64,000 nucleotides of DNA from Halorussus marinus (GCF_004765795.1 NZ_SBIV01000007.1:62001-126000), one strand, 5' to 3'; positions 39,937 to 57,283 are shown, counted from the stretch's first letter. Notes: generated from the letters alone by a model not told the origin. Numbers and translations are program-made.

Positions 39937-40036
39937 AGAGTATTCTGGCCGTATCATGCTTCGTCTTCGGGTTTAAACAATAGCTCTCACATCAATCATC
40001 CTACAGGTACACAATCGAAAATCAGCAGTGTGGGCC

Positions 40037-41165: not shown

Positions 41166-41171
41166 AAAAAA
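41166..41171 (-). terminator. Oligo-T tract, possible archaeal terminator
   Basis: T6 on the minus strand about 17 nt after the SSB-like stop. Confidence 0.4.
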
Positions 41172-41187
41172 GGGGTGCGCCGACCGG

Positions 41188-42084
41188 CTATTCCCACCAC
41201 CGACCGCGCTCAGGGAACATAATGGTGCTCCACCCAGTGACAGCCAGTGAGACGCGCCCCTCGTACCAGTTCCGGGCTACCTTGTGAATACGCACCTGCT
41301 CGCCCTCTTCAATCCACGGCGCATCTGATTTCTCCCAGATCGTCACCTTCGTTTTTCCACTGTCGTCTGCGATCAGCCCGACTTGAGCGATGGCCGGCGA
41401 GTCCGCATCCCAGAGTACTTCGACTCGACCCTCGATGCTCACCTCTTTGCGATTGACGTCCTCGAGCTTCCCAATGGGGATCACCGTCCCAGGCGCCGTC
41501 TGCAACTCCTCGAACACCCCGACGACTGCACTCGTTAGGTCTTTCCCACCGACGACGGCTTCACCCAACCGCCGGCCAATCGCTGCTCGCGACCAGCCAT
41601 CCAGTTTTTCCGCCAACCGCATCGACTGCTTGTTCACCGCCGCCAACTGCTCCTGCGTGAGCTCTGCACGAGGATCGTCTCGCTCCGGGTCAGCCATCGG
41701 ATTCACGCTCGCTGCCCGCTTCTGGAACTTCACACGCCGCTCAGCGCTTCGCTTCGCTGCGATGTCTCGCGTCCGCTTCGCACGCCCCTCCTGCTGACTG
41801 AGTTCTGCCTGGGCACTGATGTGTTCCAACTCGGCCTCTCGTGCCTTGATGCGCTCTTCCTGTTCGAGGGTCTTCCCGAACAGGTGATCCGGGCCTTCCT
41901 CGACGCGCGCGTCTGGGTGGTTGGAATCGACTTTGGCCTGGACTTCCATGTCGACCGTCGCCCGGAACTCCGGGGTCTCGTCGACGACTTCGAAGCCATC
42001 CTCGTCGACCTCGCCTTCATCGTGTTTCTCGAAAGCCTGTTCATCGACCGAAACTACATCCGTGGTGACGTTGTTACTAGACAT
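41188..42084 (-). CDS. OB-fold ssDNA-binding (RPA/SSB-like) protein
   Basis: C-terminal VSIEGRV...QVGLIADDSG...VTIW...EGEQVRI OB fold, with a coiled-coil N-terminal half. Confidence 0.8.
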   Translation of the reverse strand: MSSNNVTTDVVSVDEQAFEKHDEGEVDEDGFEVVDETPEFRATVDMEVQAKVDSNHPDARVEEGPDHLFGKTLEQEERIKAREAELEHISAQAELSQQEGRAKRTRDIAAKRSAERRVKFQKRAASVNPMADPERDDPRAELTQEQLAAVNKQSMRLAEKLDGWSRAAIGRRLGEAVVGGKDLTSAVVGVFEELQTAPGTVIPIGKLEDVNRKEVSIEGRVEVLWDADSPAIAQVGLIADDSGKTKVTIWEKSDAPWIEEGEQVRIHKVARNWYEGRVSLAVTGWSTIMFPERGRWWE

Positions 42085-42476
42085 TGGAATCTACCCTGAT
42101 TCCTGAAGGCGCTCAGCGCCCGACACCGCGATGCTACAACATCGCGGATTTCCTCGACGACAACGACCGACAGACTCGTCTGCGCGCTCTCGCTCGCGCC
42201 TTCGCGAGCGCCCCTTGGGGCGCGAGCGAGAGCGCGCCATAGGGAGGCCACTCAACCAGCACCGCGCGCCGACCCGCCCGGAGCGAGCGGCCAGCGGGAT
42301 ATGCCCGCTCGTGTCCGGCCCGATGTGCGGGTCCGTGTCCAGGGCGACTGTCGCCGAGAACGCGCGCCGCGGTGTGGCGCGCGACAGCGCAGGCGGCACC
42401 AAGCGCTGGAACGCGAAAGCCCGCAAGGGGCGCAACCGACGGGGATACCCGCTGGCGCCGAGGGCACATGCATTTT
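42070..42476 (-). repeat. Structured leader, copy 1 (inverted relative to 56986-57283)
   Basis: Perfect 19-bp stem (42182-42200 / 42219-42237) and 8-bp hairpin (42126-42147). Long near-identical blocks are shared with copy 2. Confidence 0.9.
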
Positions 42477-42823
42477 AGCCCGGAACGGGCGCGGGCGGTG
42501 CGGAGAGCGCCCGCACGCCCGGAATGGTCGGTCGCGAGCGACGCGGAGGGCGGAACGCGGCGAGCGGTGCGGGCCATAACGGACACACCTGTCCACCCAG
42601 CCGCGACACTCAGCGACCCAACTACTGCCCTGGCGGACTCAGAAAGGGCGAGGCCGTCTCGGTCACCGGGAAAGCAGGCTCTCCCGAGCTAACGGGCGGC
42701 GCGCCGCCCGTGAACGGCCGAGGGCCTTCATCGTGTTGCTCACCCAGCAACCTCAGCTGAGTCAGTCATACTCGTTGCGAGATAGCGAAGTTATTTAAAT
42801 ATCGGTTCGTATCTACGCAACAG

Positions 42824-43747
42824 ATGCTTACCGAAGGCGAGGTTCGCGCGCTCACCGTCCTTCACGGTGAGCAGACAGTCTCCGAATTTGCGACCCAGCT
42901 GGACCGCAGTCTCAGCTACACGTCTGAACTTGTCGATCGTCTCGAAGCGACCGGACTCGTCGAGACGCGTCGACAAGGGAAAACAAAGCAGATCCGGCCA
43001 TCGGACGCGAAAGCACTCGAACTCCTCGCAGACATCACCCAAGAGTATTCGCACATCGACTGGCCTGAACTGTTGTCGGGTGCGACGCTCCGCGTTCTCT
43101 ACTATCTTGAAACACCGCGGGTCGTAATGGAGCTCGCACGCCGGGCCAACATTCACAGGAGTACCGTCCATCGCGCCCTCGATCCACTTCAGCATCGAGG
43201 GATCATCTACGAAACTGACGAGGATGCATATGTGCTGAACGAGGGATTCGAACAACTGAGTACGCTTGCTCGGGAACTCGTTCACCACGACCATCGCCAG
43301 ACCGTCGAACAACACACCGACACCTACACGATTCTCTGGGAGTCACTCGACGAGTTCCTCGTCCAGACCGCAGATGAGATTACCGCCGAGGACTTCCTTT
43401 CGACGGGGCCAGAGCGTTTCCAGACCTACGACCTGCCCCTTCTGGCCCGCGACCGTCGGTACTATTTCCATTCAGAGACGATGAATGATCTCTCGCCGGC
43501 GATGCTGTGCTGTCATATGCTCGTAATCGATTCGGGCGCACGTACCCAGTCATACTGTCTGCTCCTGCTCAGCCACGTTGACGTCGACCGTGACGAACTG
43601 CGTGACCAGGCCACAAAGTACGGCGTCGACGATCTCGTCGAGGACTTGCTCACGTATCTCGACACGAGTGGCGAGGAGCGGGCATCTCGACTTCCCGAGT
43701 GGGAAGAGTTCCAAGAATTGGCTGCGGACTACGGGGTGTCAGCATGA
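42824..43747 (+). CDS. Tandem wHTH protein (putative antitoxin/regulator)
   Basis: Shares HIDWPELLS.ATLRV.YYL and CH.LV.DSG with 30766..31716. Confidence 0.75.
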   Translation: MLTEGEVRALTVLHGEQTVSEFATQLDRSLSYTSELVDRLEATGLVETRRQGKTKQIRPSDAKALELLADITQEYSHIDWPELLSGATLRVLYYLETPRVVMELARRANIHRSTVHRALDPLQHRGIIYETDEDAYVLNEGFEQLSTLARELVHHDHRQTVEQHTDTYTILWESLDEFLVQTADEITAEDFLSTGPERFQTYDLPLLARDRRYYFHSETMNDLSPAMLCCHMLVIDSGARTQSYCLLLLSHVDVDRDELRDQATKYGVDDLVEDLLTYLDTSGEERASRLPEWEEFQELAADYGVSA

Positions 43748-44556
43748 GGGCGCGATTCGACAGTTCGTACATTCGGTCGGAACTCGAGCGCATCGGCGAG
43801 CAGCTAGACGATCCACTCACTGTCTTCTTGATCGGCGGTGGGGCAATGGCGTTCCAGGATCTCAAGACCACTACCAAGGATATCGATCTCATCGTCGCAT
43901 CCGGTGATGACCTCGGGCAGCTCCAAGCAGTACTGCTCGAACTTGGTTACGATATCGTTCGGGAACCGGACGAAGAATACGAAGCGCTCGGTGCTCAGCG
44001 AATCCTCGAGAACGATGATGGGTGTCGAATCGACATCTTTCACCAGCAGGTAATCGATAAACTGGTTCTTTCTGACGGGATTCGGAAGCGTAGCGAGCGG
44101 TACCTCAACCCCAGCAACTTGGTGGTCGAACTCGTGAGCCCAGAGGACATCTTCCTATTCAAGGCGGTCGCCGGACGGGTGGACGATATCGAAGATATGT
44201 TTTCGCTGCTGCAGACTGACCTCGATTTCGACGTCGTCGAAGCAGAACTCGCCGCGCAGATCGACCTCTTGGATCAAGAGCTATTCGTAACATACGTGAA
44301 CGAGGCGTTGGCCGATCTCACCGAGCAACACAACGTGAGGACACCCCTGCATGAGCCGGTCGCGGAGATTACAGAGCGCGTATACGAGGAACTCGAAGTG
44401 CTTCACGCCCTCGACGAACCGAAATCTATGCCTGCCCTCCAGCAGGAACTCGATTACACCACGGTTGAATTACAGGATATCGTGAGTCGTCTCGAGGAGA
44501 AAGACGCAGTCAAGGGAACCGCTGATCGCATCGAGCGTCTTTCGACGACGATCTGA
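43744..44556 (+). CDS. DUF6036/AbiEii-like nucleotidyltransferase
   Basis: LIGGGAM...TKDIDL, LFK and GRVDDIED. ATGA overlap with the upstream gene. Confidence 0.8.
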   Translation: MRARFDSSYIRSELERIGEQLDDPLTVFLIGGGAMAFQDLKTTTKDIDLIVASGDDLGQLQAVLLELGYDIVREPDEEYEALGAQRILENDDGCRIDIFHQQVIDKLVLSDGIRKRSERYLNPSNLVVELVSPEDIFLFKAVAGRVDDIEDMFSLLQTDLDFDVVEAELAAQIDLLDQELFVTYVNEALADLTEQHNVRTPLHEPVAEITERVYEELEVLHALDEPKSMPALQQELDYTTVELQDIVSRLEEKDAVKGTADRIERLSTTI

Positions 44557-44721
44557 CGGCGAGGGATACCGGAATCTATGGCGTAATGCCAAGCGGTGCG
44601 GCTTATTGGATACTTTCCCTATCCATGGATAGGGAGACTCCCCATTAGTCGCGGTCAAGCGCGACGTCGACTTCGTCAACGAGGTCCTCCATGGAAACGG
44701 TGTAAGCGTCGGCAACATGTC

Positions 44722-45045
44722 TCACTCAACGAGATGCTCATCGAGGTCGTGCGTCCAGTACGTCGCGGGCCCGCCAGGACTACATCGCGCACACAGCTGC
44801 AGCGGCCCCTCGAGATGGCCGAGTTCCACACGGAAGCGCGTGAGCGCCGCGAGAGCGTCGACGACGAGCCCACAGCCATCGCAGGCGTCGCGATCGCGCT
44901 CGTCGGGATCCGGCTCCATCTGGATCGCGCAGTCGACGCAGATAGGGTGGGTGACCCGCTCATCTTCCCCCCAGGTGTGGGCCTCGCCAGTCTCGGTGCT
45001 GGGCGGAGCGTCGCAGAACGCACACCCTGTAAGCGTCTGCTGCAT
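44722..45045 (-). CDS. Hypothetical double zinc-finger protein
   Basis: Four CxxC pairs. TAATG overlap with the upstream gene. Confidence 0.75.
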   Translation of the reverse strand: MQQTLTGCAFCDAPPSTETGEAHTWGEDERVTHPICVDCAIQMEPDPDERDRDACDGCGLVVDALAALTRFRVELGHLEGPLQLCARCSPGGPATYWTHDLDEHLVE

Positions 45046-45335
45046 TACTCCGCCTCCGCGTCGGCGTCGCGGCCGGCCGTCCAGCCACGGTGGAAGACGG
45101 CCAATTGCGTCGTCGAGTCGAAGGTAGTAACACTCGGCTCGTGAACGAGAACGCGATCCTCGGGAACGGGTGTGACGACGTCCGCGTCGATGAGGTCGTC
45201 GACTAGGCTGCGGGCCGTTGCGTCGTCGACGTCCGCGGTCGCGACGCTCGCGGCGTCACGGTCCTGTGCGAGGAGTTCGGTTTCGAGCTGTTCGTGGTCG
45301 GCACTCGTGTCGTCGTGAGGATCGGGACCAGCCAT
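45045..45335 (-). CDS. Hypothetical acidic protein
   Basis: 96 aa, leader motif upstream. Confidence 0.7.
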   Translation of the reverse strand: MAGPDPHDDTSADHEQLETELLAQDRDAASVATADVDDATARSLVDDLIDADVVTPVPEDRVLVHEPSVTTFDSTTQLAVFHRGWTAGRDADAEAE

Positions 45336-45555
45336 GGTGAATCACGCCGCGCACGCTCTCGCGCGCTGCACGCCTCCCGGCGCCGATAAACAGCCCAGTC
45401 GGAGGGCGTCAGTCCGACCCTGGGTCGCGATACTCGAAAACGGCAACGTCGCGGAGGGATAGGGCGGTGGGCGGGGGTTGAGGGCATGAATTCTGGCAAC
45501 GTCGTTAACCAACACTTCGACAGAACTGGTCCCGAGTGTTGGTTAAGAGTGTGGC

Positions 45556-45996
45556 CTATGGAGTCCGGAGTTCCTGAACCGGCTTCACGTTGAACGTGTC
45601 CGGCTCGCTGGCTGCTGCTTCTCGTGTGCGTTCCGCTTGTGAGGCTGCCGACCGGGTGAGCTGGGTGACGAGTTCGTCGCGAACGATCTCCCGAGGAACG
45701 GTTGTCTCGTGCCAGCCCAGCCGGGCGTCGAAGTGCCGCTTTTGGAACTGCTCGCTGACGTCGTCGACGGCGACGTACTGCGTGCGGTTTGTCCCCCGGA
45801 CCTGGTGGGTGACGACGACTGCCCCCACGTGCTCGTGCGTCAGCTCGATTAGGGCACACTCCACGAGCGCGACGAGCGACGCGTGATCGCGGTCGTTCGG
45901 GATCGCCACCTCGAGGTCTGCCCACGGAGCCTCCCCGTCGGAGTTGGTTGCTGCTTGCTGTACCGTCTGCGTTTGGGTCGTACGTTCCGAAGCCAT
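45556..45996 (-). CDS. Hypothetical protein
   Basis: 146 aa, leader motif upstream. Confidence 0.7.
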   Translation of the reverse strand: MASERTTQTQTVQQAATNSDGEAPWADLEVAIPNDRDHASLVALVECALIELTHEHVGAVVVTHQVRGTNRTQYVAVDDVSEQFQKRHFDARLGWHETTVPREIVRDELVTQLTRSAASQAERTREAAASEPDTFNVKPVQELRTP

Positions 45997-46070
45997 CGTC
46001 TATCGGGGGCACGTGATGTACCCCGCCGCCCCCTGGCGGGGGTGACAGACGTGCCGCTGCGGTCGCAACG

Positions 46071-47324
46071 CTACTTGGACCGACCGCCGAATAACCGACC
46101 CAACAGTGAGGATGACTCTGACTCACTACTGTTCTCACTCGTAGTAGCGGCGTGCTCGCCCTGGCACTCCTCCTCCTGGCCACGGGTGGCGAGTTCGTCA
46201 GTGAGTCGCTTGACCTCCGCTTCGAGAGCGTCGATGCGCTCGGTTTTCTCCGTGAGTGTCGCCTCGAGCTCGTCGACGCGGTCGCTCAAGATCTGGTTCT
46301 TCTCGGCGAGATACGCGCGACTCCGCTCCGAGTCAGCAGCGCCGACGTCTGGCGACGATGTGGCGGGGATCTCGTCCGCGGTATCGTCGCCGGCGTCCGG
46401 GTCGTAGAACTCCGAAGTAGTCGCAATTGCTCGCTCGATGGTCTTCTCCCCATACGTCGACCCATCAGCGTAGTGGACCTCGTCCCACTTCTCCCGAAGC
46501 AATCCTGACTGGCGAAACAGGTGATCCATCTGCGTCCGGTCGCCGCCGGTCCAGAACGCCAGCAGACAGCACAGCGCCATGTCGGCCTCGGACTGGCTGT
46601 CGTAGCCGGCTGTGTTCCCGTTCCAGAGCCGCTCGAACTTCTCGCCGTTCGATGCATTCCGCGCTTTCTCGAGGAGGTCCTCGTCTTCGAGGTCGACGTC
46701 AACGCCGGCTGCACCGGTCGTCGGTGACTCGTCGTCAGCGCTACCACGCTGTTCGGACTCTGCTGCCGTGTCACGCTCTGTCTCCTGAACGTACTCACGG
46801 TGAATCGCTCTGAGCGCGTCCTGTCGACGTGCGACGCACGTTGGTGTCCGCTCGACGTGATCGCCAGTGACGGTGAAAAATCGTGCCGTGTCGTACAGTT
46901 CGATGCTCCCGCGACGGTTCCGCCCCTCGGGAAGTTCGCCCCTGATGAGGACGTGATAGCCGGTGCCGGACGGTGACACCTCCGTATAGGAGTCGAGGCG
47001 CTCGATGATGTCTAGTGCCGCGTCGTCGACGTCGCCGGTTTCAGGATCACGGCAGTCGTCCAGGTCGACACCGACGATGGGATCGTCGTCGGTAAACACG
47101 AACCCAACGCCATCGGCGTGTGCCGTCTCGGTGTAGTCGAGCGCTGTCTCGAAGCTCGCCCAGGTCTCCGACTCTGTTGATGACGCGAACCCCCCACCTC
47201 CCGGCGTCACCGGAATCTTCGTCGACTTGCCGTCCCGCTCCTCTTCGCGCCAGCACACCCACTGGTCCCGTTCGCGTAGCGTCTCCGGAATCGCCTCCGA
47301 TTCGTCGATACTACTCTCACTCAT
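46071..47324 (-). CDS. Primase-polymerase (AEP, NrS-1-like) with helical C-domain and coiled coil; no helicase domain
   Basis: QWVCW, GVDLDDC, EVSPSGTGYH, IELY..RFFTVTG and DSQSEADMAL. Confidence 0.88.
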   Translation of the reverse strand: MSESSIDESEAIPETLRERDQWVCWREEERDGKSTKIPVTPGGGGFASSTESETWASFETALDYTETAHADGVGFVFTDDDPIVGVDLDDCRDPETGDVDDAALDIIERLDSYTEVSPSGTGYHVLIRGELPEGRNRRGSIELYDTARFFTVTGDHVERTPTCVARRQDALRAIHREYVQETERDTAAESEQRGSADDESPTTGAAGVDVDLEDEDLLEKARNASNGEKFERLWNGNTAGYDSQSEADMALCCLLAFWTGGDRTQMDHLFRQSGLLREKWDEVHYADGSTYGEKTIERAIATTSEFYDPDAGDDTADEIPATSSPDVGAADSERSRAYLAEKNQILSDRVDELEATLTEKTERIDALEAEVKRLTDELATRGQEEECQGEHAATTSENSSESESSSLLGRLFGGRSK

Positions 47325-47413
47325 CCTCACATAGCACCTCGCATGGCTCTCACTGGCTCTGAGCCAGCACAGACTTCACGCTGCTCTGCGTGTCGATCCA
47401 ATCCCTTGGTCCC

Positions 47414-47622
47414 AACGGGGAACCCCCGTTCTATCCTAGTTGGTTTTTGCCGTAACAGATCATTCAAATCAGTGAAATCCTGGGTCTGAGGCTCCCGATA
47501 CGTGCATACAGCAAAATCTCTCCAGAATGCTTGTGTTACGGCATTTCGGTTGGTTGCCGTAACCCCTCTCCGTCTGCTGATTTCGGTGCTGCGGAGACGA
47601 TATGCCTCGATGTTTCCGTAAC
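47414..47622. repeat. CCGTAAC iteron-like repeats and hairpins (candidate ori/oriT)
   Basis: CCGTAAC at 47450, 47557 and 47616. Inverted repeat 47535-47543 / 47555-47563. Hairpin at 47414-47430. Confidence 0.55.
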
Positions 47623-47712
47623 GCGAGAGGCATTTCCTGTTATGCAAACTCAAATTTACATTTACGATATATTTGGCGCTGAGTGTGGATTGCATTGTAT
47701 TCCCCTCCAGAT

Positions 47713-50700
47713 CTATTCTGATTTGAGTGCAAGCCCCTCGTAGTATCGAACAGAGTCGCCGTTCTCATTGTCTGTGTTCCGCTCGAACGTGACATAGTTC
47801 CCGAGGCGACGGCCGAACCAGGGTTTGCTATCTGTATCAATCCCGTGAGCCTCAGCCCACTGCTCGTAGATTTCGTAGACATCTCCGGCGGCTACTCTGC
47901 TTTCCGGATCTTCGACGAGGTGTGTCTCTGCGAATCGCTCAACAACCGCCTCTGGATCCTCAGCAATATCGTCAATCGATGGCTGAGGCGCCTGCTGAAT
48001 ATGGTCTGCCTGTTCTCCTGTCGTTTCTTCGCACCCACTTGTGGTGACGGTATCGAGTAAGGTGTCCATCGAGTACGTACCGTCAGTATCGTACACGACC
48101 GGGTTGCCTTCTTCAGGGAGAATGACGATAGCGTACGACGTGGGGCTATAATCGGGTGTCTGGAGTTCGGCTTCGGGGACGAATGGCTTCTTGATACGCA
48201 CCCAGTCGCCCTCGAACGCCGATTTCGTCTCGTAGATGTGTTGCTCACCGTGCTCGTATACGACGTACTCGTCGGCAGCGTGGTCGTAGCTGTAGATAGC
48301 TGGAACACGATCTTTCGAGAGTTTTCCAAGCGACTCGAGGCGGATATGTTCCGTCCCGCTGGCATCACGAAGGACGATCTCGTCGCCATCACGCTGCCAG
48401 ATGTTCTGAGTCCCGTTCTCGTCGTCGGTCGCCGGTCGGACGGCCGTCACTCCACCTTCTTCGGTCGCTCCACCGTTGAACGTGAGATTCGAGTCAGTCG
48501 TGTAGAACCGTGTCTCACCATTCTGGAGTGTGCGAACGGGTGGTGTGAGAATGCCGTCGACACGCTCGGCCCACTCAGTTTCGTCGTTTCCTGGTCGAAC
48601 GACAAACAGCGGGATATCCCCTGCTTCTTGGGCTTTCCGGAGATTCGTGAGCACCTTCGCGGGATTCTCGGGTGTCGTCGTTTCGACTTCGATGGCGAAT
48701 CGGTCGGAAACGTCGGGGTGGCTCGCCCTCGCGTCAGGTTTCTCGCTGCCATCCTGTGCGAGGATCGAGACGGTGAAACCGAGTGCAGTGAGTTCTTCTT
48801 CGATCTGAAGGAGTGCTGCGTCGTGGGCACTCCCACCGGCGGCCTGCACGCCACCAGTATCGGGTGTCGCGACCTTTTCTCCGGCGTCAGTGAGCCGGAT
48901 GCGGAGCTCGTCGGCGTCGATATCGACGGTCGTATCGAGGTATCGTGATCGTTCGCGAATGTCCGCGAGTGCATCATACGATGGCGGCTCGGCGTCGACG
49001 TCGTCAAAGAGGCGTCTGAGTTCGTCGTCAACCGCTTCAACGGCCACCCAACCGTTCTCCTCACGGCATCCTTCTCGAAGCTGGAGACTCCGGACCACCG
49101 TCGCAATCGCGACGTCCAGGTCGTCGCTCGCGATATCGAGCACTCCGTGTCCGTCGGTCGGTGTTCTCGTTGTTGAGGCGTCTGTTGCAGCCGGCACGCC
49201 GTGTTCCTCGCTGATGTTCTCGTGCATCGAGGAGAGTGTCTCAGTGAACTGCTCCTCTTCACGCTCTGTGAGCGGAGATTCGCTCTCGGGGTGGCCCGGT
49301 GGAATCGGGAGTGGTTCGAGACTGAACGGATACGGCCCCGTTTCACCGAACGTCGGGCTTGGCAGGCTGGCGATCCACTCCCCTCGTGGCAACGAACGAA
49401 TCCGATTGGCGAAATCCGCGGGGTCCATCTCTTCGTGGGCCATCGCTCGCGCCAGTTCCCGGTCGACGTTGATTTTCCCGATGAGTGAACTGCCGATGTT
49501 GTTCAGAGCATTCAGGTAGATCTTCCGCCCACCTTCAGCCTCCATCTGTTCGGGGAACTGCATCGACAGGCCAACAGAGAGCCGGAATCCCCGGCCTTTC
49601 TCGAGGAGATCATTCATGATGTCGGAGACTACGACCGACGCTGCCTCGTCGACGAGCAAGTTCACGACGTAGTCGTCCGAGTGCTGGGAGAGGGCCTGTT
49701 TGCGGTCCTTGAGAGCTGCATCGAGATTGGTCAGGATCACACCAGTCATGATCCGGGCAGCGTCGTCGCGGAGATCTCCGAGGTCGAAGAGGATGACCGT
49801 ATCCTCGTCGAGGACATCCCGAAAGTCGAACTGGTTCTCGGTATTGTTGAAGATCTGCCGCAGGTGCGTATCCTGTGAAATGTACGCAAGGCGGTTTCCG
49901 ACACCCCCCATCACGTTCGCGAAGGTGTTCGAATCTAACTGGAGTTGCCGTCGAATCGTCCGCGTGACTTCCTCGTCGCTCGACCGTGGGGCGTCGCCGA
50001 TGTTCTCGTTCGGTGGCCCGGCCTCCCAGAGCTGGTCGACGACGTGTTCGAGCTGTCGGTGGGCAAAGTAATCCGTCGACGCTCGGTAGAGCCCGTTCTC
50101 ACGCCCGTATTCCTCGTCGAACAGTGCCTTGATGAGTGTCTTGATGAGAGTTGGAGCCACAGTCGCCCGCTCGTAGCGGTCGGTTCCCATCACGAGCTTC
50201 AAAATCTCTTCGTAGTGGTCGGCCTTCCGTTGGACGGCGTCTTCGCGGCGCCGTCCGCTCTCCATCGACGGTTCGAGATCGAAAAACGAGAACCCGGGGA
50301 GGACGTCCGGAATCGGGAAGTGGACGACGTTCTCTTCGAGGTCGGTCATTCCGAACCGACGCGCGTGAGCCCGCATGTAATTCTGGGCCATATCGTCGTT
50401 TTTCGGGATGATGAGGATCGTCGGCCCCTCGGTGTTGTCGTACAGCGACAGCATATCGTTGATGAGGGCTTTCGACTTCCCAGAGCCGGTTGTTCCGAAC
50501 CGGCCGTAATGAGTGGGCAGCAGTCCGGGTGGAATGTGTGTCGGCTCGTCTTCGGCCTCGCCGGTGTCGTCGAGGGCATACCCGATTGCCATCCCGTCTC
50601 GGAACTCACTCATGAGGTCTTGGTGCGGACGGGGCAACGGATTCCGACTCTGCTGTTCCGCACGCGTCCCCCGTGTCCCCTCGACAGTAAGCTGTTCCGA

Positions 50701-52008
50701 GGAGGGGACGAGTACGAAGTGCGCGAGTTCTCGGCCGCTCAGGACGAACTCCGGTCGGGTCTTTCCACGGCCAGTCGTGATCTCACGATCCAAGAGCCGC
50801 TGCAGCGCCGCTCGGGCGTTTCGTTCTTTCGTGGCTGCCCGGAAGCCGCTGTTGCGTACCCGTTCGGCCGCAACCTGGTAGTACGGTCCATCAAGCGGGT
50901 CGAATACCGGGACAAGTGATTGCATCCGCTCATCGAGTTCACCGCGACCGTCGTCACCGGATGGAATCCCGATTGCTCGGACATTCGCAGTGAACGACCG
51001 CTTCGGATTTTTCGCCTCAATCGCCTCGACACGTTTTGCAACCGCATCGCTCAGCTGGTTTCTGTCCCGGCTCTCCGACTGATCGTCGAGTTCGAAAAGG
51101 GAGCCAATAATTTCCTGAGCGAGTGTGTCTCGTCCGTCGATGACGTCCTCCTTGCGAAGGTCGGCATCGGACTGCCAGCTCTCGCGTCGTTGGAAGACGA
51201 CCTGGAACGCTACTGGTGCTGTCGCCTCCATCAGATGGTCGACGAGTGACGCGAGCGCACCTCCTGGCTGATCGACGGCTGGGAGTTCTGCTTCGTCGTC
51301 GGCAGTAACTGGCAAGAGTGAGGTCATCCAGTCTTGCTTCCGAGTCGCCGACCCTTGCCACCGTACGCCGAGTGGGGAGACGGATTCGGTCGCTGGCCGT
51401 GCGAGTATCGTCCCCTCCGATGTTACCGTTGGTTTGGCAAGCGTGGTGAGTGGCTCATCCTCAGGAATCGCATCTGGTGGGGCGAGTTCGAGGGCAGTAT
51501 CACCAATCTCGATGAAGTGGTCGGCAGACTGGTCACCGACTGTTCCTCCATCCGCGACTGATTCGGCGTCTGCTGGCCCCGCTTGTTTGTTGTCGTCAGT
51601 GCCACGTTCGTATTGCTCGTCAGGGCCGAACTCATACCTGAGCCCGCCCGAGTTATACTGCTCGACGAATGTCTCTCGGTCGAATTCGACAGGCTGCACG
51701 AGTCGGGATGCGACGTCGACCTCGGTACGCTCGATGTCGAACGTCTCGGGATAGACCGACTGGAGCCGCTTCTCAAGGGTATCTAGATGGTCGTCGGCAC
51801 CGTAGTAGAATTCGACGGGGTCATCTGCCCCCTCGCTCAGCGCGAGAAATTCGAATTGTATCGGTGTGTCGCTATGTAGCGGATTGAGTTTGTCAACTAG
51901 CCCTGTCGAGTCCGTTGAGGTCAGTTTGTGGAGGCTCTCCAGTGCCTGCGGCAGACGCTCCGGATTGAGGCGTTCGGAGGTTGGCGTCACGCGAAGATAC
52001 TCACGCAT
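47713..52008 (-). CDS. VirD4/TraD-like ATPase fused to putative wHTH + PD-(D/E)XK nuclease and a C-terminal D5/P4-like wHTH
   Basis: Walker A GTTGSGKS, Walker B LLVDEA, KGRGF...QFPEQ and LPRGE. ATG 52008 has a GGAGGTG RBS and overlaps the virB4 3' end. Confidence 0.8.
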   Translation of the reverse strand: MREYLRVTPTSERLNPERLPQALESLHKLTSTDSTGLVDKLNPLHSDTPIQFEFLALSEGADDPVEFYYGADDHLDTLEKRLQSVYPETFDIERTEVDVASRLVQPVEFDRETFVEQYNSGGLRYEFGPDEQYERGTDDNKQAGPADAESVADGGTVGDQSADHFIEIGDTALELAPPDAIPEDEPLTTLAKPTVTSEGTILARPATESVSPLGVRWQGSATRKQDWMTSLLPVTADDEAELPAVDQPGGALASLVDHLMEATAPVAFQVVFQRRESWQSDADLRKEDVIDGRDTLAQEIIGSLFELDDQSESRDRNQLSDAVAKRVEAIEAKNPKRSFTANVRAIGIPSGDDGRGELDERMQSLVPVFDPLDGPYYQVAAERVRNSGFRAATKERNARAALQRLLDREITTGRGKTRPEFVLSGRELAHFVLVPSSEQLTVEGTRGTRAEQQSRNPLPRPHQDLMSEFRDGMAIGYALDDTGEAEDEPTHIPPGLLPTHYGRFGTTGSGKSKALINDMLSLYDNTEGPTILIIPKNDDMAQNYMRAHARRFGMTDLEENVVHFPIPDVLPGFSFFDLEPSMESGRRREDAVQRKADHYEEILKLVMGTDRYERATVAPTLIKTLIKALFDEEYGRENGLYRASTDYFAHRQLEHVVDQLWEAGPPNENIGDAPRSSDEEVTRTIRRQLQLDSNTFANVMGGVGNRLAYISQDTHLRQIFNNTENQFDFRDVLDEDTVILFDLGDLRDDAARIMTGVILTNLDAALKDRKQALSQHSDDYVVNLLVDEAASVVVSDIMNDLLEKGRGFRLSVGLSMQFPEQMEAEGGRKIYLNALNNIGSSLIGKINVDRELARAMAHEEMDPADFANRIRSLPRGEWIASLPSPTFGETGPYPFSLEPLPIPPGHPESESPLTEREEEQFTETLSSMHENISEEHGVPAATDASTTRTPTDGHGVLDIASDDLDVAIATVVRSLQLREGCREENGWVAVEAVDDELRRLFDDVDAEPPSYDALADIRERSRYLDTTVDIDADELRIRLTDAGEKVATPDTGGVQAAGGSAHDAALLQIEEELTALGFTVSILAQDGSEKPDARASHPDVSDRFAIEVETTTPENPAKVLTNLRKAQEAGDIPLFVVRPGNDETEWAERVDGILTPPVRTLQNGETRFYTTDSNLTFNGGATEEGGVTAVRPATDDENGTQNIWQRDGDEIVLRDASGTEHIRLESLGKLSKDRVPAIYSYDHAADEYVVYEHGEQHIYETKSAFEGDWVRIKKPFVPEAELQTPDYSPTSYAIVILPEEGNPVVYDTDGTYSMDTLLDTVTTSGCEETTGEQADHIQQAPQPSIDDIAEDPEAVVERFAETHLVEDPESRVAAGDVYEIYEQWAEAHGIDTDSKPWFGRRLGNYVTFERNTDNENGDSVRYYEGLALKSE

Positions 52009-54208
52009 CGTCGCCACCTCCCGTTTCGCCGCCATCAGTCTCTGTTGGCGTCCGCTCAGATTGGAGTTGTCCGTTGTCAGTCCTTCGGCGTTCAATCTCG
52101 TCTTGGAACGCCTGCACGTCCGCGTCCACGGCGTTCTCACCAGTCCCGGGGAGTGAGGATCGCCGTTGCTCGGTTGGCTCGAAGTCGATGACTTGCTTCT
52201 CTTTGGGCATCGCTTTGACCTGGATGCCGCGCCACTCGCCGTCGACGCCCACCAGCGCCTCGGAGAAGCCGGCGTCCTCGTTGCCCGGCACGGCGTCCTG
52301 GACGAACCGCATCTGTGCGTAGTTCAGGCCGAACTCGTCGGCCCACTCCTCGTCCATCCCGTCGAGGCGGTGGAACTGCTTGACCGCACACTGGTCCAGA
52401 ATCGCCTCGGATTCGGCGTGCTCGAAGAACTCGTCGACCGTCTGCGTGACCAGCCGGATCGAGAGGTCGTGATGCCGGTGATGGCGGAATACCGTTTCGA
52501 GGAACGCCAGGCTCGCGGCGTCCTGCATAATGTAGCGCGCCTCGTCGATGTAGAACACGACCTCCTTCTCCGAGACTTTCGCCCGCTCATACACCAGCGA
52601 GATCAGGAGCTGCATCGTCAGCGCCGTGCTGCTGTCGACGCTGCCCTCCTGCTGAGCGAGGTCGAGGTAGATGACCTTCTCGTCCCGGATGTCGAAGTCG
52701 GACTCTTGGCCGAGGTTGGCGTGCCGCCCGTCGTCCTCGAAGGGGCGGAGCTGGTCGAGGAGCCACGTCGCGTCCTCCTTGATCTTCCCCGCCTCCTCGT
52801 CGGACCGGACGACGAACTCCTCGGGGTCGTTGACCATCTCCTCGAAGACGTCCATCATATCCTGAATCGTCGGGCTCGGGTTGCCGTGCGTGGAGATGTC
52901 GTCGGTAATCCCGTTGCGCTTGTACGCCCGCTTGAGCCCGAGTTCCAGCGTCGTCCGGCGGTCACCCAGCGAGATGCCCCGCAGCGCGAAGAAGTTCGTG
53001 AGGAAGCTCATCGCGTCGTCGAGCTTCTCGTTGAATGGGCTCGCGTCCTCGCCCATCGCCCGCTGGACATGCTCGGGCGTCTCGCGGATCTCCAGGGGGT
53101 TCAGCCCGAGCGTCCCGCCGACAGTGATGCGTTTGGCGTCGAGGGCTTCGGCGACGCCGGCCCAGTTGTTCAGCGGTTCGAGGATGATGCCGATACGGTC
53201 CTTGCTCTGCTCGATCGACCGGATGAAGTTCTGCTTCGAACTGAACGACTTCCCCGACCCCGTGTCGCCGACGGTGAACATCGCGTAGCCGTTGTCCCGC
53301 GCGAACGGGTCGATGACCACGGGACTCTGGTTGTCCTTGTGAATCCCGAATTCGACGCCGCCCTCCTCGAGGATCGTCGCGTTGTGCGGCGAAGACAGTA
53401 ACGCGCCGACGGCGCCGCCGAGCGCAATCGACGTCCGCCCGAACTCGTTGTCGCCGATGGGCGCGGCGGACTGGAGGGCGAGGTCCTGCCGGCAGATCGC
53501 CGTTTTCGGCGTGAGGTTCGCCGGATCGTCGCGGAGTGCGCTCTTGACCTTCTGGACGGCGTCCCTGAGTTCCTCCTTCTCGTCGGCTCTGACCGTGATG
53601 AACATCCCCTGGTCGAAGACATTCGCGCCGTTCTCGACGGCCTTGTACGTCGCTGCGGCCTCGTTGGCACGTTCCTGTAGGTAGGCACTCCGGACGCTCT
53701 GTTCGAGGTCAGCGTCCACCTGGAGGTCGTCAGCGATGTCCTGCAGTTCGTTCCGGGCCCGCTCCTGGTTCTTCGGCGTGATGTGGGCCGTCAGGTCGAA
53801 CTGCACGTCGGTCATCTCGAAGAGCTCGGAGAGGTAGCCGTCGTTGGGGTAGTCCGGGTAGTCAGCGATGTACAGCGTCGTCGTCCACTGCTCGCCGACC
53901 CGTGCCGCGCGCGTCTCCCACTCGATCGCCGCCGGCGCCGTCACCATCTTGTGTGACTCAGCGATGTCGTCGAGGAGTTGGCGTTCGGCCGCGCCCTGTT
54001 CGATGGTCTCCTCGTCGAGCAAATCCGAGAACTCGACCTCTTCCTCGTCGTCTTCGGTGTACCAGTCCCAGAGGAGTTTCCCGCCGATCCCGACCAGTAC
54101 CGCGAGCAGGATGTAGAGAGCCGCACCTTCCGCTGAGGTTGGGTTCGTGAGCCACTCCGTGAGCTGGCCGACAGCTCCGCTGTCCGTCTGGAGGATGAGG
54201 TTACGCAT
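52001..54208 (-). CDS. virB4: VirB4-like T4SS ATPase
   Basis: GDTGSGKS, LNPLE, FYIDEA, RH...LVTQ and an N-terminal TM segment. Start is 54208 or 54217. Confidence 0.9.
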   Translation of the reverse strand: MRNLILQTDSGAVGQLTEWLTNPTSAEGAALYILLAVLVGIGGKLLWDWYTEDDEEEVEFSDLLDEETIEQGAAERQLLDDIAESHKMVTAPAAIEWETRAARVGEQWTTTLYIADYPDYPNDGYLSELFEMTDVQFDLTAHITPKNQERARNELQDIADDLQVDADLEQSVRSAYLQERANEAAATYKAVENGANVFDQGMFITVRADEKEELRDAVQKVKSALRDDPANLTPKTAICRQDLALQSAAPIGDNEFGRTSIALGGAVGALLSSPHNATILEEGGVEFGIHKDNQSPVVIDPFARDNGYAMFTVGDTGSGKSFSSKQNFIRSIEQSKDRIGIILEPLNNWAGVAEALDAKRITVGGTLGLNPLEIRETPEHVQRAMGEDASPFNEKLDDAMSFLTNFFALRGISLGDRRTTLELGLKRAYKRNGITDDISTHGNPSPTIQDMMDVFEEMVNDPEEFVVRSDEEAGKIKEDATWLLDQLRPFEDDGRHANLGQESDFDIRDEKVIYLDLAQQEGSVDSSTALTMQLLISLVYERAKVSEKEVVFYIDEARYIMQDAASLAFLETVFRHHRHHDLSIRLVTQTVDEFFEHAESEAILDQCAVKQFHRLDGMDEEWADEFGLNYAQMRFVQDAVPGNEDAGFSEALVGVDGEWRGIQVKAMPKEKQVIDFEPTEQRRSSLPGTGENAVDADVQAFQDEIERRRTDNGQLQSERTPTETDGGETGGGDDA

Positions 54209-55322
54209 CGTGGTCATCCTCCCGGCGCGAATGGCCGATGATGGGTCGTTCGCGAACGACGCTCTCTGCGTCGTCGTACTCGTGTTCGCGGCCGTTCCAG
54301 AAGTCCATATTCAACACGAAGAGTTCGACCGTGCTGAGCCGGCGTGCGGACCAGCCAGACGCCTGCTGGATGAACTCCGAGCGCACGTCGTTGACCCGGC
54401 TATCCAGCTTCTCGAACATCTGTGCGCGGCGCTCGACGTCGGTGAGGTCCTCGCGGCGGGTGACGAACGGGTTGAACAGGAACCCGATGACGGGGAACTG
54501 CGTCAGCTTCTCGGCCGGCGTCCCCTCGTCTCGGAAGCGGTCGTAGACCTCCAGCGGGGTGACTTGGACGCCGATGTAGTACCGCATCTGCTGGATGCCC
54601 CGTTCGCGCATCTCCTTCGGCCGGGTCTCTCGGTATTCCTCGAGGAGTTCTCGGAAGATGGGGTTTTCTTTGACGTCCTCGTCGTTCAGGCGGTCTTCGA
54701 TGTTCTCGGTGATCTGTTCGACTGGGAACGAGCGGGTCGTGGCGTGGAGTTTGAGCTTCGAGTCCAGTTCCTTGTTGGCGAACTCCTCGCCGGCGTCCTG
54801 GAGCTGTGCCCAGTCGTCGGACATCGCGAAGTCCATGTTGCCGGGGTCGATCTCGATGAACGCCTCCATCGTGCCGTCCGCGCGCTGGATCGCGCCAGCG
54901 CCCGGCCACGCCCGTTCGATGTTCGTGAGGACCTGTGTCCGCTCGTCGGGCTTGAACGGCGTGTAGTTCGCGAGCCCGCCCTCGTTGCGCTCTGTCTCGT
55001 TGGTACTACTGTCGGCCTCCTCCGGGGCACTGAACGTGATCTGGGGGCGCTTGACGTAGCGATAGACGTCTTTCGTCCACGTCCACGCGTTGAGGTGGTC
55101 GGGCGAGACGTAGACGATCGCGACGCCGAACCCGAAGCCACCTGCGACGAACGGCAGGGCGAGTGATTCGATGCCGGTGAGGCCAGCGATGAACAGGCCG
55201 ACGATCGGGAAAGCGATCAGGACGCTGACGTCGCCTTCCTCGATGTTGAGGTAGGGGATGCGACTCTCCTCACCGAACTGGTCCATGATGCGCCGTGCGG
55301 CTGCGTCTTCGTCGATGGCCAT
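54201..55322 (-). CDS. Membrane-anchored T4SS component (PrgI/VirB3-position gene)
   Basis: Two N-terminal TMs. Overlaps the virB4 start. The call rests largely on position. Confidence 0.65.
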   Translation of the reverse strand: MAIDEDAAARRIMDQFGEESRIPYLNIEEGDVSVLIAFPIVGLFIAGLTGIESLALPFVAGGFGFGVAIVYVSPDHLNAWTWTKDVYRYVKRPQITFSAPEEADSSTNETERNEGGLANYTPFKPDERTQVLTNIERAWPGAGAIQRADGTMEAFIEIDPGNMDFAMSDDWAQLQDAGEEFANKELDSKLKLHATTRSFPVEQITENIEDRLNDEDVKENPIFRELLEEYRETRPKEMRERGIQQMRYYIGVQVTPLEVYDRFRDEGTPAEKLTQFPVIGFLFNPFVTRREDLTDVERRAQMFEKLDSRVNDVRSEFIQQASGWSARRLSTVELFVLNMDFWNGREHEYDDAESVVRERPIIGHSRREDDHDA

Positions 55323-55328
55323 GGATTG

Positions 55329-55593
55329 TTAGTAACCTCCAGGGTCGTTCTCGGTCCGCCGGTACGACGGCGTCCCGCTGTCTTCGTCGCTGTTCGCGCC
55401 CCGGGCTGCAGCTTTCTGCGCCACAGCGTGTCCCGCTGCGGCCTTCGGTCCCCATCGGGCCGCTGTTGTCGCGACGCCGGCGCCGCCGATGTAGGCTCCA
55501 GCGGCGACACCGCCGATGAGGGCCGCTCCTTTCGTCGCACCACCGAGAACCTTCGCCGTCAGTGGGGTTGCGTATTTGAACGTCTTCCAGGTT
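55329..55593 (-). pseudogene. 3' remnant of a T4SS membrane gene (VirB6-like position) cut by ISH3
   Basis: Open frame TWKTFKYATP...GGVAAGAYIGGAG...ENDPGGY* begins at the IS edge. Confidence 0.7.
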
Positions 55594-56985
55594 CAGTACC
55601 TCACAAAGCTCGCAAGTTGAAGGAGTCCGCTTGCTGAGTTGTGTCCAAGCAAGCAAAGCAAGCGGACAATGAAATCCACGAGGACCAGCTCCTTAACTTC
55701 CTCGTCAACTGCCTTGACGAGGAAGTTTCTCTCAACCTCGCCAACAACGCTGAAATCGGTGCAGAGGACATCTACGAGGTCCTCGTCGGCGCGACCGCCG
55801 ACGGGACCTCGATCTCGACGCTGTGCAACTCCAGTGAAGACTCGCCATCGGCGAACACAGTTCTCTATCATCTACGGACGAAGTTCGAGCCCGAACGGCT
55901 CGAACGAGTCGCTAACACGCTTCTTCGCCGAGACATCGTCGAACTGCTTCCCGAGCAGGTGGAGGTCTGCGCAGACCTCCACCTGCGGCCCTACTACGGT
56001 GATGAAGACGACACGGAGAACCTCTATCACTCGGAAGCCAAGCGTGGAACCACCGCATTCCACGCCTACGCCACACTCTACGCGCGTGTGAAGAACAAAC
56101 GCTACACGCTGGCGGTGCGCCGTCTCGAAGACGGCGACACCGCCAGCAGCGTCCTCGCTGAGTTCCTTGGTGTACTCGACGGCCTTGACACCGAGGTCAA
56201 GGCCGTCTACCTTGATCGCGGATTCTACGACAGCAAGTGTCTCACGCTGCTTCAGGCGCACAACTACGCCTACGTGGTCCCAATCATTCAGTGGGGTGAG
56301 GCGATTCAGCAGGAACTCTCGGAAGGATGGAGTCGCATTATTCAACACAACCTGACAGGGAAACTCGACGGTCACAGCTGGACCGTCGAGTTTCCCGTCT
56401 ACATCGACTGTACGTACCTGAACGGACGATATGACGAGAACGGTGTAGCGCGTCACGGCTACGCCGCTGACGCGCCGTTCATCGAGACGCCACGCGAAGC
56501 GCGATACCACTACAGCAAACGCTTCGGTATCGAATCGAGCTATCGCTTGTCCGAGCAAGCGATAGCGACGACAACGACACGAGACGCGACGGTGAGACTG
56601 CTGTACGTCGTAGTGAGTCTGCTGCTACAGAATGTTTGGCGGTATCTCCACTACGAATACGTGGCGACGCCGCGCCGAGGCGGGCGTCGCCTCTGGTGGT
56701 GGCCGTACAAGGAGTTCGTGAATATGGTTCGACGGGCTGCGTGGACGGCCCTTGCGGTGCGTCGGGCCGTCCCCGCGAACCGACCACCTGACGACCGATT
56801 CCACCGCTAACCACTGACCGGGACAGCCCCCGCACTGAGTGGCGACGCTGTCGCGTCGGCGGCTAAGCGCCGCCGACAGCGACAGCTTCCCGTCGATCTG
56901 TGAGGAGATCGCGGTCGGTCACTGCACTCCGCAACAGAAATCAGACCTCAGACTGACTCAACTGAGGACGCTTTGTGAGGTACTG
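55594..56985 (+). mobile_element. ISH3-family insertion sequence
   Basis: Perfect 16-bp terminal inverted repeats cagtacctcacaaagc / gctttgtgaggtactg. 1392 bp. Flanks (aggtt, aaatt) do not match. Confidence 0.95.
55641..56810 (+). CDS. ISH3-family DDE transposase
   Basis: ADLH, YLDRGF and YSKRFGIESSYR. 389 aa, intact. Confidence 0.95.
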   Translation: MSKQAKQADNEIHEDQLLNFLVNCLDEEVSLNLANNAEIGAEDIYEVLVGATADGTSISTLCNSSEDSPSANTVLYHLRTKFEPERLERVANTLLRRDIVELLPEQVEVCADLHLRPYYGDEDDTENLYHSEAKRGTTAFHAYATLYARVKNKRYTLAVRRLEDGDTASSVLAEFLGVLDGLDTEVKAVYLDRGFYDSKCLTLLQAHNYAYVVPIIQWGEAIQQELSEGWSRIIQHNLTGKLDGHSWTVEFPVYIDCTYLNGRYDENGVARHGYAADAPFIETPREARYHYSKRFGIESSYRLSEQAIATTTTRDATVRLLYVVVSLLLQNVWRYLHYEYVATPRRGGRRLWWWPYKEFVNMVRRAAWTALAVRRAVPANRPPDDRFHR

Positions 56986-57283
56986 AAATTGAATGTGCCC
57001 TCGACGCCAGCGGGAAAGCGCGGGGGGTTGCGCGGCGTGGCTGCTCACCCCCCACGCTTTCTCCGCTGGTCGCTCGCTCCGGGCGGGTCGGCGCGCGGCG
57101 CTGGTTGTATCCCTCCGTGCGGGCGCGCTCTCGCTCGCGCCCGGTAGGGCGCTCGCGAAGGCGCGAGCGAGAGCGCGCAGACGGCTCTGTCGGTCGTGAC
57201 GTCGAGGAAATCCCCGTGCTGGAACACGGGGTGTCGGGCGCTGTGGTGAGCGCCTTCGGGTTACCGCAATGTCGAGTAACAAC
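56986..57283 (+). repeat. Structured leader, copy 2
   Basis: Same 19-bp stem (57123-57141 / 57160-57178) and a hairpin at 57212-57231. Ends in ATG-Ser-Ser-Asn-Asn like copy 1. Confidence 0.9.

What the first reader, a model, noticed from the sequence alone, without database searches (positions are those of the whole stretch)
42070..57283. Structured leader duplicated with compensatory changes before the SSB-like and TFB-like genes
Seen: 42070-42476 (minus) and 56986-57283 (plus) share several features. These are an identical perfect 19-bp stem with an 18-nt loop, the block cgctcgctccgggcgggtcggcgcgcgg, and an upstream atgtgccctcg.cgccagcggg. A second hairpin changed sequence but still pairs (ccgcgatg/catcgcgg vs ccccgtg/cacgggg). 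Both leaders run into unrelated proteins that begin MSSNN, and both genes end before a gcac.cc..T6 tract. Inference: a portable expression or replication cassette, such as a structured ncRNA, a single-strand origin or priming signal for the primase-polymerase, or an ssDNA promoter. A hairpin-rich region ahead of ssb recalls Frpo/ssi in bacterial conjugative plasmids.
Basis: partly seen in the sequence, partly recalled or inferred. Interest (0 to 1): 0.85.

Follow-up and report, generated by a model that had tools for sequence, protein, structure and literature searches.

The report
Single-strand DNA switch on haloarchaeal plasmids
A conserved, heavily folded stretch of DNA sits in front of a single-strand-DNA-binding gene on many salt-loving archaeal plasmids, and its folding pattern suggests that it works only while the plasmid is single-stranded, probably to switch the gene on as the plasmid enters a new cell.

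Summary
The duplication is real and is one case of a family. A modular ~410-620-nt leader precedes the Rfa5/Rfa6-type RPA gene (85 of 103 sites) or a TFB-like gene (7 of 103) on haloarchaeal VirB4-bearing elements. It matches 167 plasmid records and 14 of 24 genomes of the order versus 0 of 126 outside. Copy A spans 42082-42575; copy B is clipped by an ISH3 element, so its opposite orientation is secondary. Helices covary (11 of 39 pairs). The 5' domain carries DNA-type GNA-triloop hairpins on the template strand (154 vs 15, background even), as do F/ColIb-P9 leaders (11 vs 1); the 3' part has sense GNRA loops, like a 5' UTR. H. volcanii dRNA-seq lists no sense start site for it. A conserved trailer behind the gene ends on the template in GTGG, the site preferred by the prim-pol's closest solved homologue. 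Best reading: an archaeal functional analogue of Frpo plus a priming signal; not homologous to Frpo; no activity shown; transferred strand unknown.

The parts
42082..42575 (-). Leader A, complete, in front of the RPA gene
   Evidence: (CM hits 201.7 and 146.7 bits)
42256..42575 (-). 5' domain: multibranched structure closed by two long-range helices (arms 42541-42575 and 42256-42295); predicted to fold on the template (+) strand as ssDNA
   Evidence: covariation; strand bias; DNA fold -110.7 template vs -100.4 sense
42478..42490 (+). 5-bp hairpin with GAA triloop on the template strand, next to the only A/T-rich unpaired segment (within 42451-42483)
42296..42450 (-). Exchangeable long stem module V2 (55 distinct versions in 61 parsed leaders) with strongly covarying base
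42182..42237 (-). 19-bp stem with 18-nt loop (can refold as three-way junction)
42082..42147 (-). Three short hairpins before the start codon; probable transcribed 5' UTR; last one holds an SD-like word in many homologues
   Evidence: (62 of 101)
41188..42084 (-). RPA/SSB-like gene, 298 aa, one OB fold; family of Hbt. salinarum Rfa5/Rfa6 and HVO_A0019
41166..41178 (-). T-tract, likely terminator
   Evidence: function inferred
41070..41150 (-). Trailer type 2 (C-rich on sense, several GTGG and a mini-hairpin on template)
40037..40963 (-). Full-length TFB gene behind trailer type 2
56986..57271 (+). Leader B, 5'-clipped (lacks the left arms of the long-range helices)
57269..58348 (+). Divergent TFB-like gene (Zn ribbon, one cyclin repeat detected) that has taken over the leader and the RPA-type first codons
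58354..58370 (+). T-tract, likely terminator
58374..58458 (+). Trailer type 1; template strand has G-tracts, a tandem-G.A/GCA hairpin and a terminal Y-GTGG; candidate priming signal
55594..56985 (+). ISH3-family IS with 16-bp terminal inverted repeats, flanks not duplicated; clips leader B and the gene on its left
46071..47330 (-). Primase-polymerase, NrS-1 type with helix-bundle domain
   Evidence: E 1.5e-37 to PDB 7rr3
47713..52140 (-). TraD/CedB-like ATPase with C-terminal winged helix, PD-(D/E)XK-like motif and D5-like tail; relaxase role unproven
52001..54217 (-). VirB4-like ATPase
   Evidence: NF045975 E 4e-39, below cutoff

Best explanation
The leader is an establishment-control element of a family of haloarchaeal VirB4-bearing plasmids and integrated elements that acts as single-stranded DNA on the template strand, like the Frpo promoters of F and ColIb-P9 but unrelated in sequence. 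SHOWN by computation: conservation, position, covarying helices, template-strand bias of DNA-type hairpins in the 5' domain, sense-strand GNRA loops in the 3' part, a conserved trailer. INFERRED: when the plasmid is single-stranded (most likely on entry into a recipient) the 5' domain folds and recruits host RNA polymerase; transcription starts near the 19-bp stem, yields a structured 5' UTR and a burst of RPA (or of the TFB-like protein), and stops at the T-tract; the trailer behind the gene is primed by the NrS-1-type prim-pol at its GTGG; second-strand synthesis then turns the leader off.
For: Position: 85 of 103 motif sites lie directly before RPA, 7 before a TFB-like gene, 11 before neither; 314 of 316 neighbouring gene hits are co-oriented; in 18 contigs that I could match by hand the nearest leader is 6-31 kb downstream of the coupling ATPase on the same strand. 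Recent spread: 531 nt 100% identical in plasmids of three genera. Structure: 87.6% cells paired, 11 of 39 pairs with two-sided change, 0 of 500 shuffles as high on score, slid controls 38-54%. Strand: GNA triloops 154 (58 distinct) template vs 15 (11) sense in 5' domains of 101 leaders, background 1.10 vs 1.18 per kb; tandem-G.A/GNA hairpin 37 vs 0 in 81 leaders; F/ColIb-P9 controls 11 vs 1; peak confined to leader and trailer; helix mismatches A.C 33 vs G.T 18 on sense (p 0.049) against G.T 11 vs A.C 3 in tRNAs. GNA mini-hairpins are more stable as DNA and occur at G4, ssiA and N4 ssDNA signals (PMC13037366, passages). No sense TSS for the pHV4 copies in dRNA-seq (PMC4983044 supplement). No conserved TATA-like word (21 of 101). 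Trailer: 107 of 108 end in the same 8-mer, then conservation collapses; NrSPol prefers GTGG/GTGA and starts just 5' of it (PMC8718748, passages). An ArdC-like gene lies co-oriented 25 kb downstream on the H. trapanicum plasmid.
Against: No activity was measured. No oriT or relaxase is identified, so neither ssDNA transfer nor the transferred strand is known; if the template strand is transferred, the transfer genes would not enter last as in F. Some modules favour the sense strand: V1, D3 and the 3' part fold lower on sense, one common V1 version keeps three G.T pairs on sense, D5 has G.T 5 vs A.C 3. The strict tandem-G.A motif is in only 21 of 81 leaders and in neither window leader; neither window copy has the GNRA tetraloop that most homologues have. 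Homologues are related, so counts overstate independence; the mismatch test is marginal and an earlier version was uninformative (3 vs 6). rfa5/6 mRNA is detectable in resident cells (2% of eef2; PMC5924565 tables), and a transcript over HVO_A0374 is listed in PMC6490895. GTGG is a short, common word; trailer type 1 is not found on the H. trapanicum plasmid; prim-pol was within 10 kb upstream in only 19 of 59 sites. How an archaeal polymerase would start here without a TATA box is unexplained.
Confidence: 0.5

Rival explanations
1. Structured RNA control: the leader is a long 5' UTR or read-through barrier (EGeRS1-like attenuator) that keeps RPA/TFB-like genes off in resident plasmids; the fold that matters is on the transcript.
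For: Sense GNRA loops 55 vs 3 in the 3' part; SD-like word near the start in 62 of 101 and an invariant 8-nt complement between the 19-bp stem and the pre-start segment in 92 of 101, which could make a switch or pseudoknot; sense folds lower for V1, D3, 3' part; EGeRS1 of pLS20 are 400-600-nt structured repeats without a dsDNA promoter that block read-through (PMC8708921, passages).
Against: 5' domain hairpins and purine-rich mismatches fit only the opposite strand; A.C exceeds G.T on sense even in the hairpin next to the start (8 vs 1); no Rfam match; no upstream or internal sense TSS on pHV4.
Confidence: 0.2
2. Priming signal only: leader and trailer are single-strand initiation sites for the plasmid prim-pol (or for RNA-polymerase-made primers); the link to RPA is positional.
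For: Same template-strand signature; prim-pol with helix-bundle domain upstream, always same strand (19 of 19); RepB'/ssiA precedent (PMC13037366); Frpo was described as both promoter and primer source (title of reference seen).
Against: The leader always ends exactly at a start codon, with hairpins and SD-like word tied to it, and was captured with the first codons by a second gene; the invariant GTGG is in the trailer, not the leader.
Confidence: 0.17
3. Trailer type 1 is an origin of transfer (palindrome, 7 nt, nick at the sharp edge, sense strand transferred) and the leader is an accessory binding or donor-side signal.
For: Perfect palindrome followed by 7 invariant nt and a sharp edge resembles relaxase sites (recalled); cargo beyond the edge differs in 55 hexamers among the sites counted; repeated gene-tail plus trailer units flank cargo; the coupling ATPase has a conserved nuclease-like motif.
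Against: Several trailers occur on one element; a recently spread plasmid has no type-1 trailer; hairpin signatures lie on the other strand (92 vs 19).
Confidence: 0.08
4. Neutral duplication or MITE.
For: Multi-copy, palindromic, GC-rich; copy B borders an IS.
Against: Fixed position before two gene types, module exchange and covariation, no terminal repeats of its own, order-wide conservation.
Confidence: 0.02

Closest known systems
Frpo1/Frpo2 of F and ssi elements of ColIb-P9 (ssDNA promoters of leading-region genes)
   Same: Several hundred nt, multi-copy, structured, directly before ssb on a conjugation-type plasmid; same template-strand GNA-hairpin bias; silent in donors and induced on entry in F (PMC9849209, passages).
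   Different: No sequence or CM similarity (plasmid blastn rows shown are all haloarchaeal); no sigma-70 boxes and no sigma factor in the host; also drives a TFB-like gene; has a paired trailer; position relative to oriT unknown.
EGeRS1 of Bacillus pLS20/pBS72
   Same: 400-600 nt, GC-rich, branched, multi-copy, before establishment genes, no dsDNA promoter found (PMC8708921).
   Different: No CM match to pLS20; the authors argue against ssDNA promoter function because pLS20 transfers the non-template strand; strand bias of GNA loops in EGeRS1 was too weak to call (5 vs 2).
ssiA/ssiB of RSF1010 (RepB') and GTG-type sites of pRN1 and NrS-1 prim-pols
   Same: Hairpin next to a short ss motif, plasmid-encoded primase with helix-bundle domain; trailer ends in GTGG preceded by a pyrimidine.
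   Different: Those signals are ~40 nt or less and sit in replication origins; the trailer is ~85 nt, G-tract rich and sits behind a gene; no assay.
Phage N4 virion RNA polymerase hairpin promoters
   Same: Template-strand hairpin with 5-bp stem and GAA/GGA loop (PMC13037366; window 42478-42490).
   Different: N4 brings its own single-subunit polymerase; none is encoded here, and that hairpin is absent from many leaders.
Rfa5/Rfa6 (Hbt. salinarum), HVO_A0019/A0374/A0409 (H. volcanii)
   Same: The gene behind the leader belongs to this plasmid RPA family and these loci carry the leader (A0409 only a weak 28-bit remnant).
   Different: The passages and tables read in PMC5924565 treat them as DNA-repair genes and do not mention an upstream structure.

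Membership tests
Frpo/ssi ssDNA promoters (F, ColIb-P9) | Directly upstream of ssb-type genes on a plasmid with transfer genes | tested here: met
   85 of 103 sites before RPA; VirB4/coupling ATPase co-oriented upstream
Frpo/ssi ssDNA promoters (F, ColIb-P9) | Folds on the template strand as DNA | tested here: met
   By sequence signature only: 154 vs 15 GNA hairpins, 37 vs 0 tandem-G.A hairpins; some modules disagree
Frpo/ssi ssDNA promoters (F, ColIb-P9) | Sequence homology to Frpo/ssi | tested here: not met
   CMs R1 and R2 give no significant hit in the F and ColIb-P9 leading regions
Frpo/ssi ssDNA promoters (F, ColIb-P9) | Reconstitutes sigma-70 -35/-10 boxes | tested here: not met
   0 sites in 40900-42900 by linear scan; archaeal host lacks sigma factors (established knowledge)
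Frpo/ssi ssDNA promoters (F, ColIb-P9) | Lies in the leading region on the transferred strand | not testable with these tools
   No oriT or relaxase identified
Frpo/ssi ssDNA promoters (F, ColIb-P9) | Silent as dsDNA, active on entry | tested here: inconclusive
   No sense TSS in dRNA-seq; low but detectable rfa5/6 mRNA; no mating data
EGeRS1 (pLS20 family) | Multi-copy 400-600-nt branched GC-rich region before establishment genes | tested here: met
EGeRS1 (pLS20 family) | Sequence homology | tested here: not met
   R1 gives no hit in pLS20 45000-65774
EGeRS1 (pLS20 family) | Blocks read-through in native orientation | not testable with these tools
   needs a reporter
Primase-specific ssi (RSF1010 ssiA/B, GTG-type) - for the trailer | Hairpin next to the primase's recognition word on one strand; cognate primase encoded nearby | tested here: met
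   107 of 108 trailers end in Y-GTGG on template; NrS-1-type prim-pol; short word, so weak
Primase-specific ssi (RSF1010 ssiA/B, GTG-type) - for the trailer | Primer synthesis by that primase | not testable with these tools
   needs an assay
Known ncRNA or riboswitch (Rfam 15) | Match at gathering score | tested here: not met
   0 in window; best E 0.27 in three own loci
MITE | Own terminal inverted repeats, target duplication, dispersed contexts | tested here: not met
   Fixed context; the only TIRs belong to ISH3

The most novel reading that the evidence does not exclude
The first archaeal single-stranded-DNA promoter: a template-strand structure that recruits archaeal RNA polymerase without a TATA box, paired with a downstream prim-pol priming site, so that an incoming plasmid strand expresses its own RPA and TFB before it becomes double-stranded. 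It would also be indirect evidence that this large haloarchaeal plasmid family moves as ssDNA, with the template strand transferred.
Probability: 0.4. Interest if true: 0.9.

Novelty: new variant of a known kind. Interest (0 to 1): 0.74.

Why it matters
A 2025 review says archaeal relaxases, and how ssDNA reaches the pilus, are still unknown and that only one euryarchaeal plasmid was shown to be conjugative (PMC12282955, passages). This element gives a strand-specific, cloneable handle on that question in genetically tractable hosts (pHV4 of H. volcanii, pHS3 of Hbt. salinarum carry it). If it is a promoter, it shows TATA-independent initiation by archaeal RNA polymerase on ssDNA and convergent evolution of zygotic induction in archaea. 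It would also give a role to the plasmid RPA and TFB paralogues of haloarchaea. My searches found no description of the element (library limited to open-access papers and bioRxiv).

Tried and rejected
Rfam: nothing. Viral contigs and phage records: no match. Homology to F, ColIb-P9, pLS20 leaders: none. Public RNA runs: only contigs, no strand or start information, uninformative. PMC6490895 lists no pHV4 transcript between 18,202 and 53,856, but that whole block is blank, so I do not count it. Mismatch test on strand-neutral MFE pairs: too few events. tRNA control from ARAGORN brackets is biased, since only G.T shows as non-standard, and was discarded with its Fisher p; replaced. Shuffle z-scores per strand timed out; plain energy comparison follows G+T skew and is mixed. 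Leader-trailer duplex folds gave no consistent helix. TATA model: A/T-rich segment present in 82 of 101 leaders but missing in others. Relaxase test of the ATPase's C-terminus: single-sequence fold failed (pLDDT 37.7); alignment fold pLDDT 71.6 gave no match at E 0.001; Atlas gave only a 0.81 lead to a cluster with 11% Replic_Relax; the wider fold search was not obtained. Opposite orientation of A and B as an argument against one-strand function: rejected, as B is IS-clipped and natural tandem leaders share orientation (L209, L215). Earlier-findings look-ups returned nothing. Rows dropped: 57 of 140 motif sites could not be parsed to a start codon, 18 of 79 failed block parsing; alignments A2 and A3 used 51 and 27 selected sequences with short modules.


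Full report
Observation. The window lies on G000:C7, a 217-kb contig of 57.6% G+C in a genome whose large contigs are 66-69%. Leader A runs 42575-42082. Leader B begins where an ISH3 element ends (55594-56985); the IS flanks are not duplicated, the gene on its left has lost its 5' part, and an intact 95.6%-identical leader-gene unit lies elsewhere on the contig. B's truncation and orientation are therefore secondary. The genome has four copies.

Distribution. blastn found matches in 32 of 61 related genomes, some weak, and in 167 of 72,556 plasmid records, three of them 100% identical over 531 nt in three genera; all 60 rows shown there and all 60 rows spread down a second ranking are haloarchaeal. 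A covariance model hit 14 of 24 other genomes of the order and 0 of 126 in the rest of the phylum.

Context. Of 103 motif sites with enough downstream DNA, 85 precede the RPA-like gene, 7 a TFB-like gene and 11 neither, the latter mostly truncated half-leaders. The RPA has one OB fold and belongs to the Rfa5/Rfa6, HVO_A0019 family (the A0019 label is inferred from position). TFB-like proteins behind the leader begin with RPA-type residues, so the leader moved with the first codons. Prim-pol lay within 10 kb upstream in 19 of 59 sites, DUF7558 in 30 of 59, always on the same strand; 314 of 316 neighbouring hits were co-oriented. In 18 contigs matched by hand the nearest leader is 6-31 kb downstream of the coupling ATPase on its strand. 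The complete H. trapanicum plasmid shows transfer genes, prim-pol, leader, rpa, tfb and later an ArdC-like gene in one direction. Two other genomes hold leader-tfb-like and leader-rpa units in tandem, same orientation.

Anatomy. Conserved blocks alternate with exchangeable hairpin modules (31 versions of V1 and 55 of V2 in 61 parsed leaders). RNAalifold and hand pairing agree on two long-range helices closing the 5' domain and a long V2 stem. For 39 named pairs in 27 sequences, 87.6% of cells pair, 11 pairs change on both sides, no shuffle of 500 reached the covariation score, and slid structures pair 38-54% (relatedness inflates the shuffle test). The 3' part has the 19-bp stem, nearly invariant in 51 close sequences (4 of 36 pairs covary) but rewritten with pairing kept in distant members (seen by eye), and three small hairpins; the last has 38 distinct left arms in 101 leaders.

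DNA or RNA, and which strand. GNA mini-hairpins are very stable as DNA, less so as RNA, and occur at G4, ssiA and N4 ssDNA signals (PMC13037366, passages). In the 5' domains of 101 leaders they number 154 (58 distinct) on the template strand and 15 (11) on the sense strand; upstream of 1,237 chromosomal ORFs the rate is even. A hairpin with tandem G.A pairs and a GNA loop occurs 37 times on the template strand and never on the sense strand, in 21 of 81 leaders. Six F and ColIb-P9 upstream regions that I chose give 11 vs 1. Across 20-kb loci the excess is confined to leader and trailer (98 vs 10 at the leader). Recurrent mismatches in the long helices are pyrimidine-pyrimidine on sense, purine-purine on template. 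Distinct helix mismatches are A.C 33, G.T 18 on sense (p 0.049); tRNAs give G.T 11, A.C 3. Against this: V1, D3 and the 3' part fold lower on sense, one V1 version keeps three G.T pairs, and the window leaders lack the strict tandem motif. The 3' part shows no GNA bias (7 vs 11) but GNRA loops on sense (55 vs 3) and an SD-like word in 62 of 101, as a 5' UTR would; neither window copy has that tetraloop.

Expression. In the H. volcanii dRNA-seq table (PMC4983044, supplement part 60 and term searches) there is no forward start between 17,923 and 21,904 on pHV4, where leader and rpa lie, only a weak reverse one, while neighbours have starts; none is listed for A0374 or A0409 (leader confirmed at A0374, weak at A0409). 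PMC6490895 (supplement parts 17, 18 and term search) lists a transcript over A0374 beginning inside the gene. In Hbt. salinarum rfa5/6 mRNA is 2% of eef2 and rises 2.75-fold after mitomycin C, p 0.06 (PMC5924565, sections 25 and 34). Public RNA runs were contigs only and uninformative.

Trailer. Behind the T-tract lies a second conserved element. All 58 type-1 sites in the leader-centred loci were directly behind rpa (53) or the TFB-like gene (5); in loci picked for multiple copies 6 of 19 lay behind other genes. Anchored on its 5' part, 107 of 108 end in the same 8-mer, after which conservation collapses; 77 of 201 genomes carry the 21-mer against one control match. Template-strand GNA hairpins number 92 vs 19 in 79 regions and 60 of 66 sites have four G-tracts. 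The end reads pyrimidine-GTGG on the template; the prim-pol's closest solved homologues are primases at E 1e-37 (Pfam calls its domain NrS-1-like), and NrSPol prefers GTGG/GTGA and starts at the base 5' of it (PMC8718748, passages). The word is short, and copy A has a different trailer type, so this is a lead.

Mechanism. Shown: conservation, position, covariation, strand signatures. Inferred: single-stranded state on transfer, polymerase recruitment by the folded template, a start near the 19-bp stem, priming at the trailer, shut-off on duplex formation. Unknown: oriT, relaxase, transferred strand; the coupling ATPase has an invariant HD...PD...ExE motif but no structural match at E 0.001. 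I put 0.5 on the promoter reading, 0.2 on an RNA attenuator, 0.17 on priming only, 0.08 on oriT.

Comparison and novelty. It works like Frpo/ssi (PMC9849209 and PMC11541004, passages; the latter has no word beginning 'archae' in its main text) but is not a member: no homology, no sigma-70 boxes. EGeRS1 is the other analogue (PMC8708921, passages), also not homologous. Searches for an archaeal description (listings and abstract starts seen, PMC12282955 as passages) found none, within a library that lacks most subscription journals. Verdict: a real, apparently undescribed ssDNA element family; new variant of a known kind; interest 0.74.

Noticed in passing
window 47713-52140 (-), residues ~1005-1215 and C-terminus: The TraD/CedB-like ATPase carries a winged helix plus an invariant HD...PD...ExE nuclease-like motif and a D5-like tail; candidate for the missing haloarchaeal relaxase (58 of 151 genomes match; only a weak Replic_Relax lead).
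   Followed up: partly
L059, L063, L068, L086, L093: Truncated 5' half-leader, then A/T-rich foreign DNA, then a full leader and rpa: the leader region looks like a cargo-exchange or deletion hot spot.
   Followed up: partly
L092, about 10001-10330: A half-leader lies directly before what looks like a CRISPR repeat array.
   Followed up: no
L212, L213, L216: Trailer, in two cases with the rpa gene tail and T-tract, is repeated after cargo, so cargo is bracketed by trailers.
   Followed up: partly
window 55335-55598 (-): 3' remnant of a transfer-operon gene cut by ISH3; close homologues of the upstream transfer genes were not found in the assembly, so this element may be immobile.
   Followed up: partly
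window 23722, 26223, 38637 (+): Short repeat family D7 (34 nt, CCCC..GGGG hairpin) lying before start codons of minus-strand genes in the co-oriented block.
   Followed up: no
window 39052-39957 and 32707-33267 (-): MBSP1 'biosurfactant protein 1' family gene sits in the conserved block behind tfb, with a weaker paralogue; it has a possible zinc ribbon.
   Followed up: no
window 42824-44556 (+): HTH plus DUF6036 nucleotidyltransferase pair (toxin-antitoxin-like) inserted upstream of leader A; paralogue at G000:C7 54783-55943.
   Followed up: no
window 59851-61875 (-): OLD-family ATPase/TOPRIM gene in a 43% G+C island behind trailer B, defence-like cargo.
   Followed up: no
G000:C14 1679-31807: A second element of the same family on another contig, syntenic with the window block.
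   Followed up: partly
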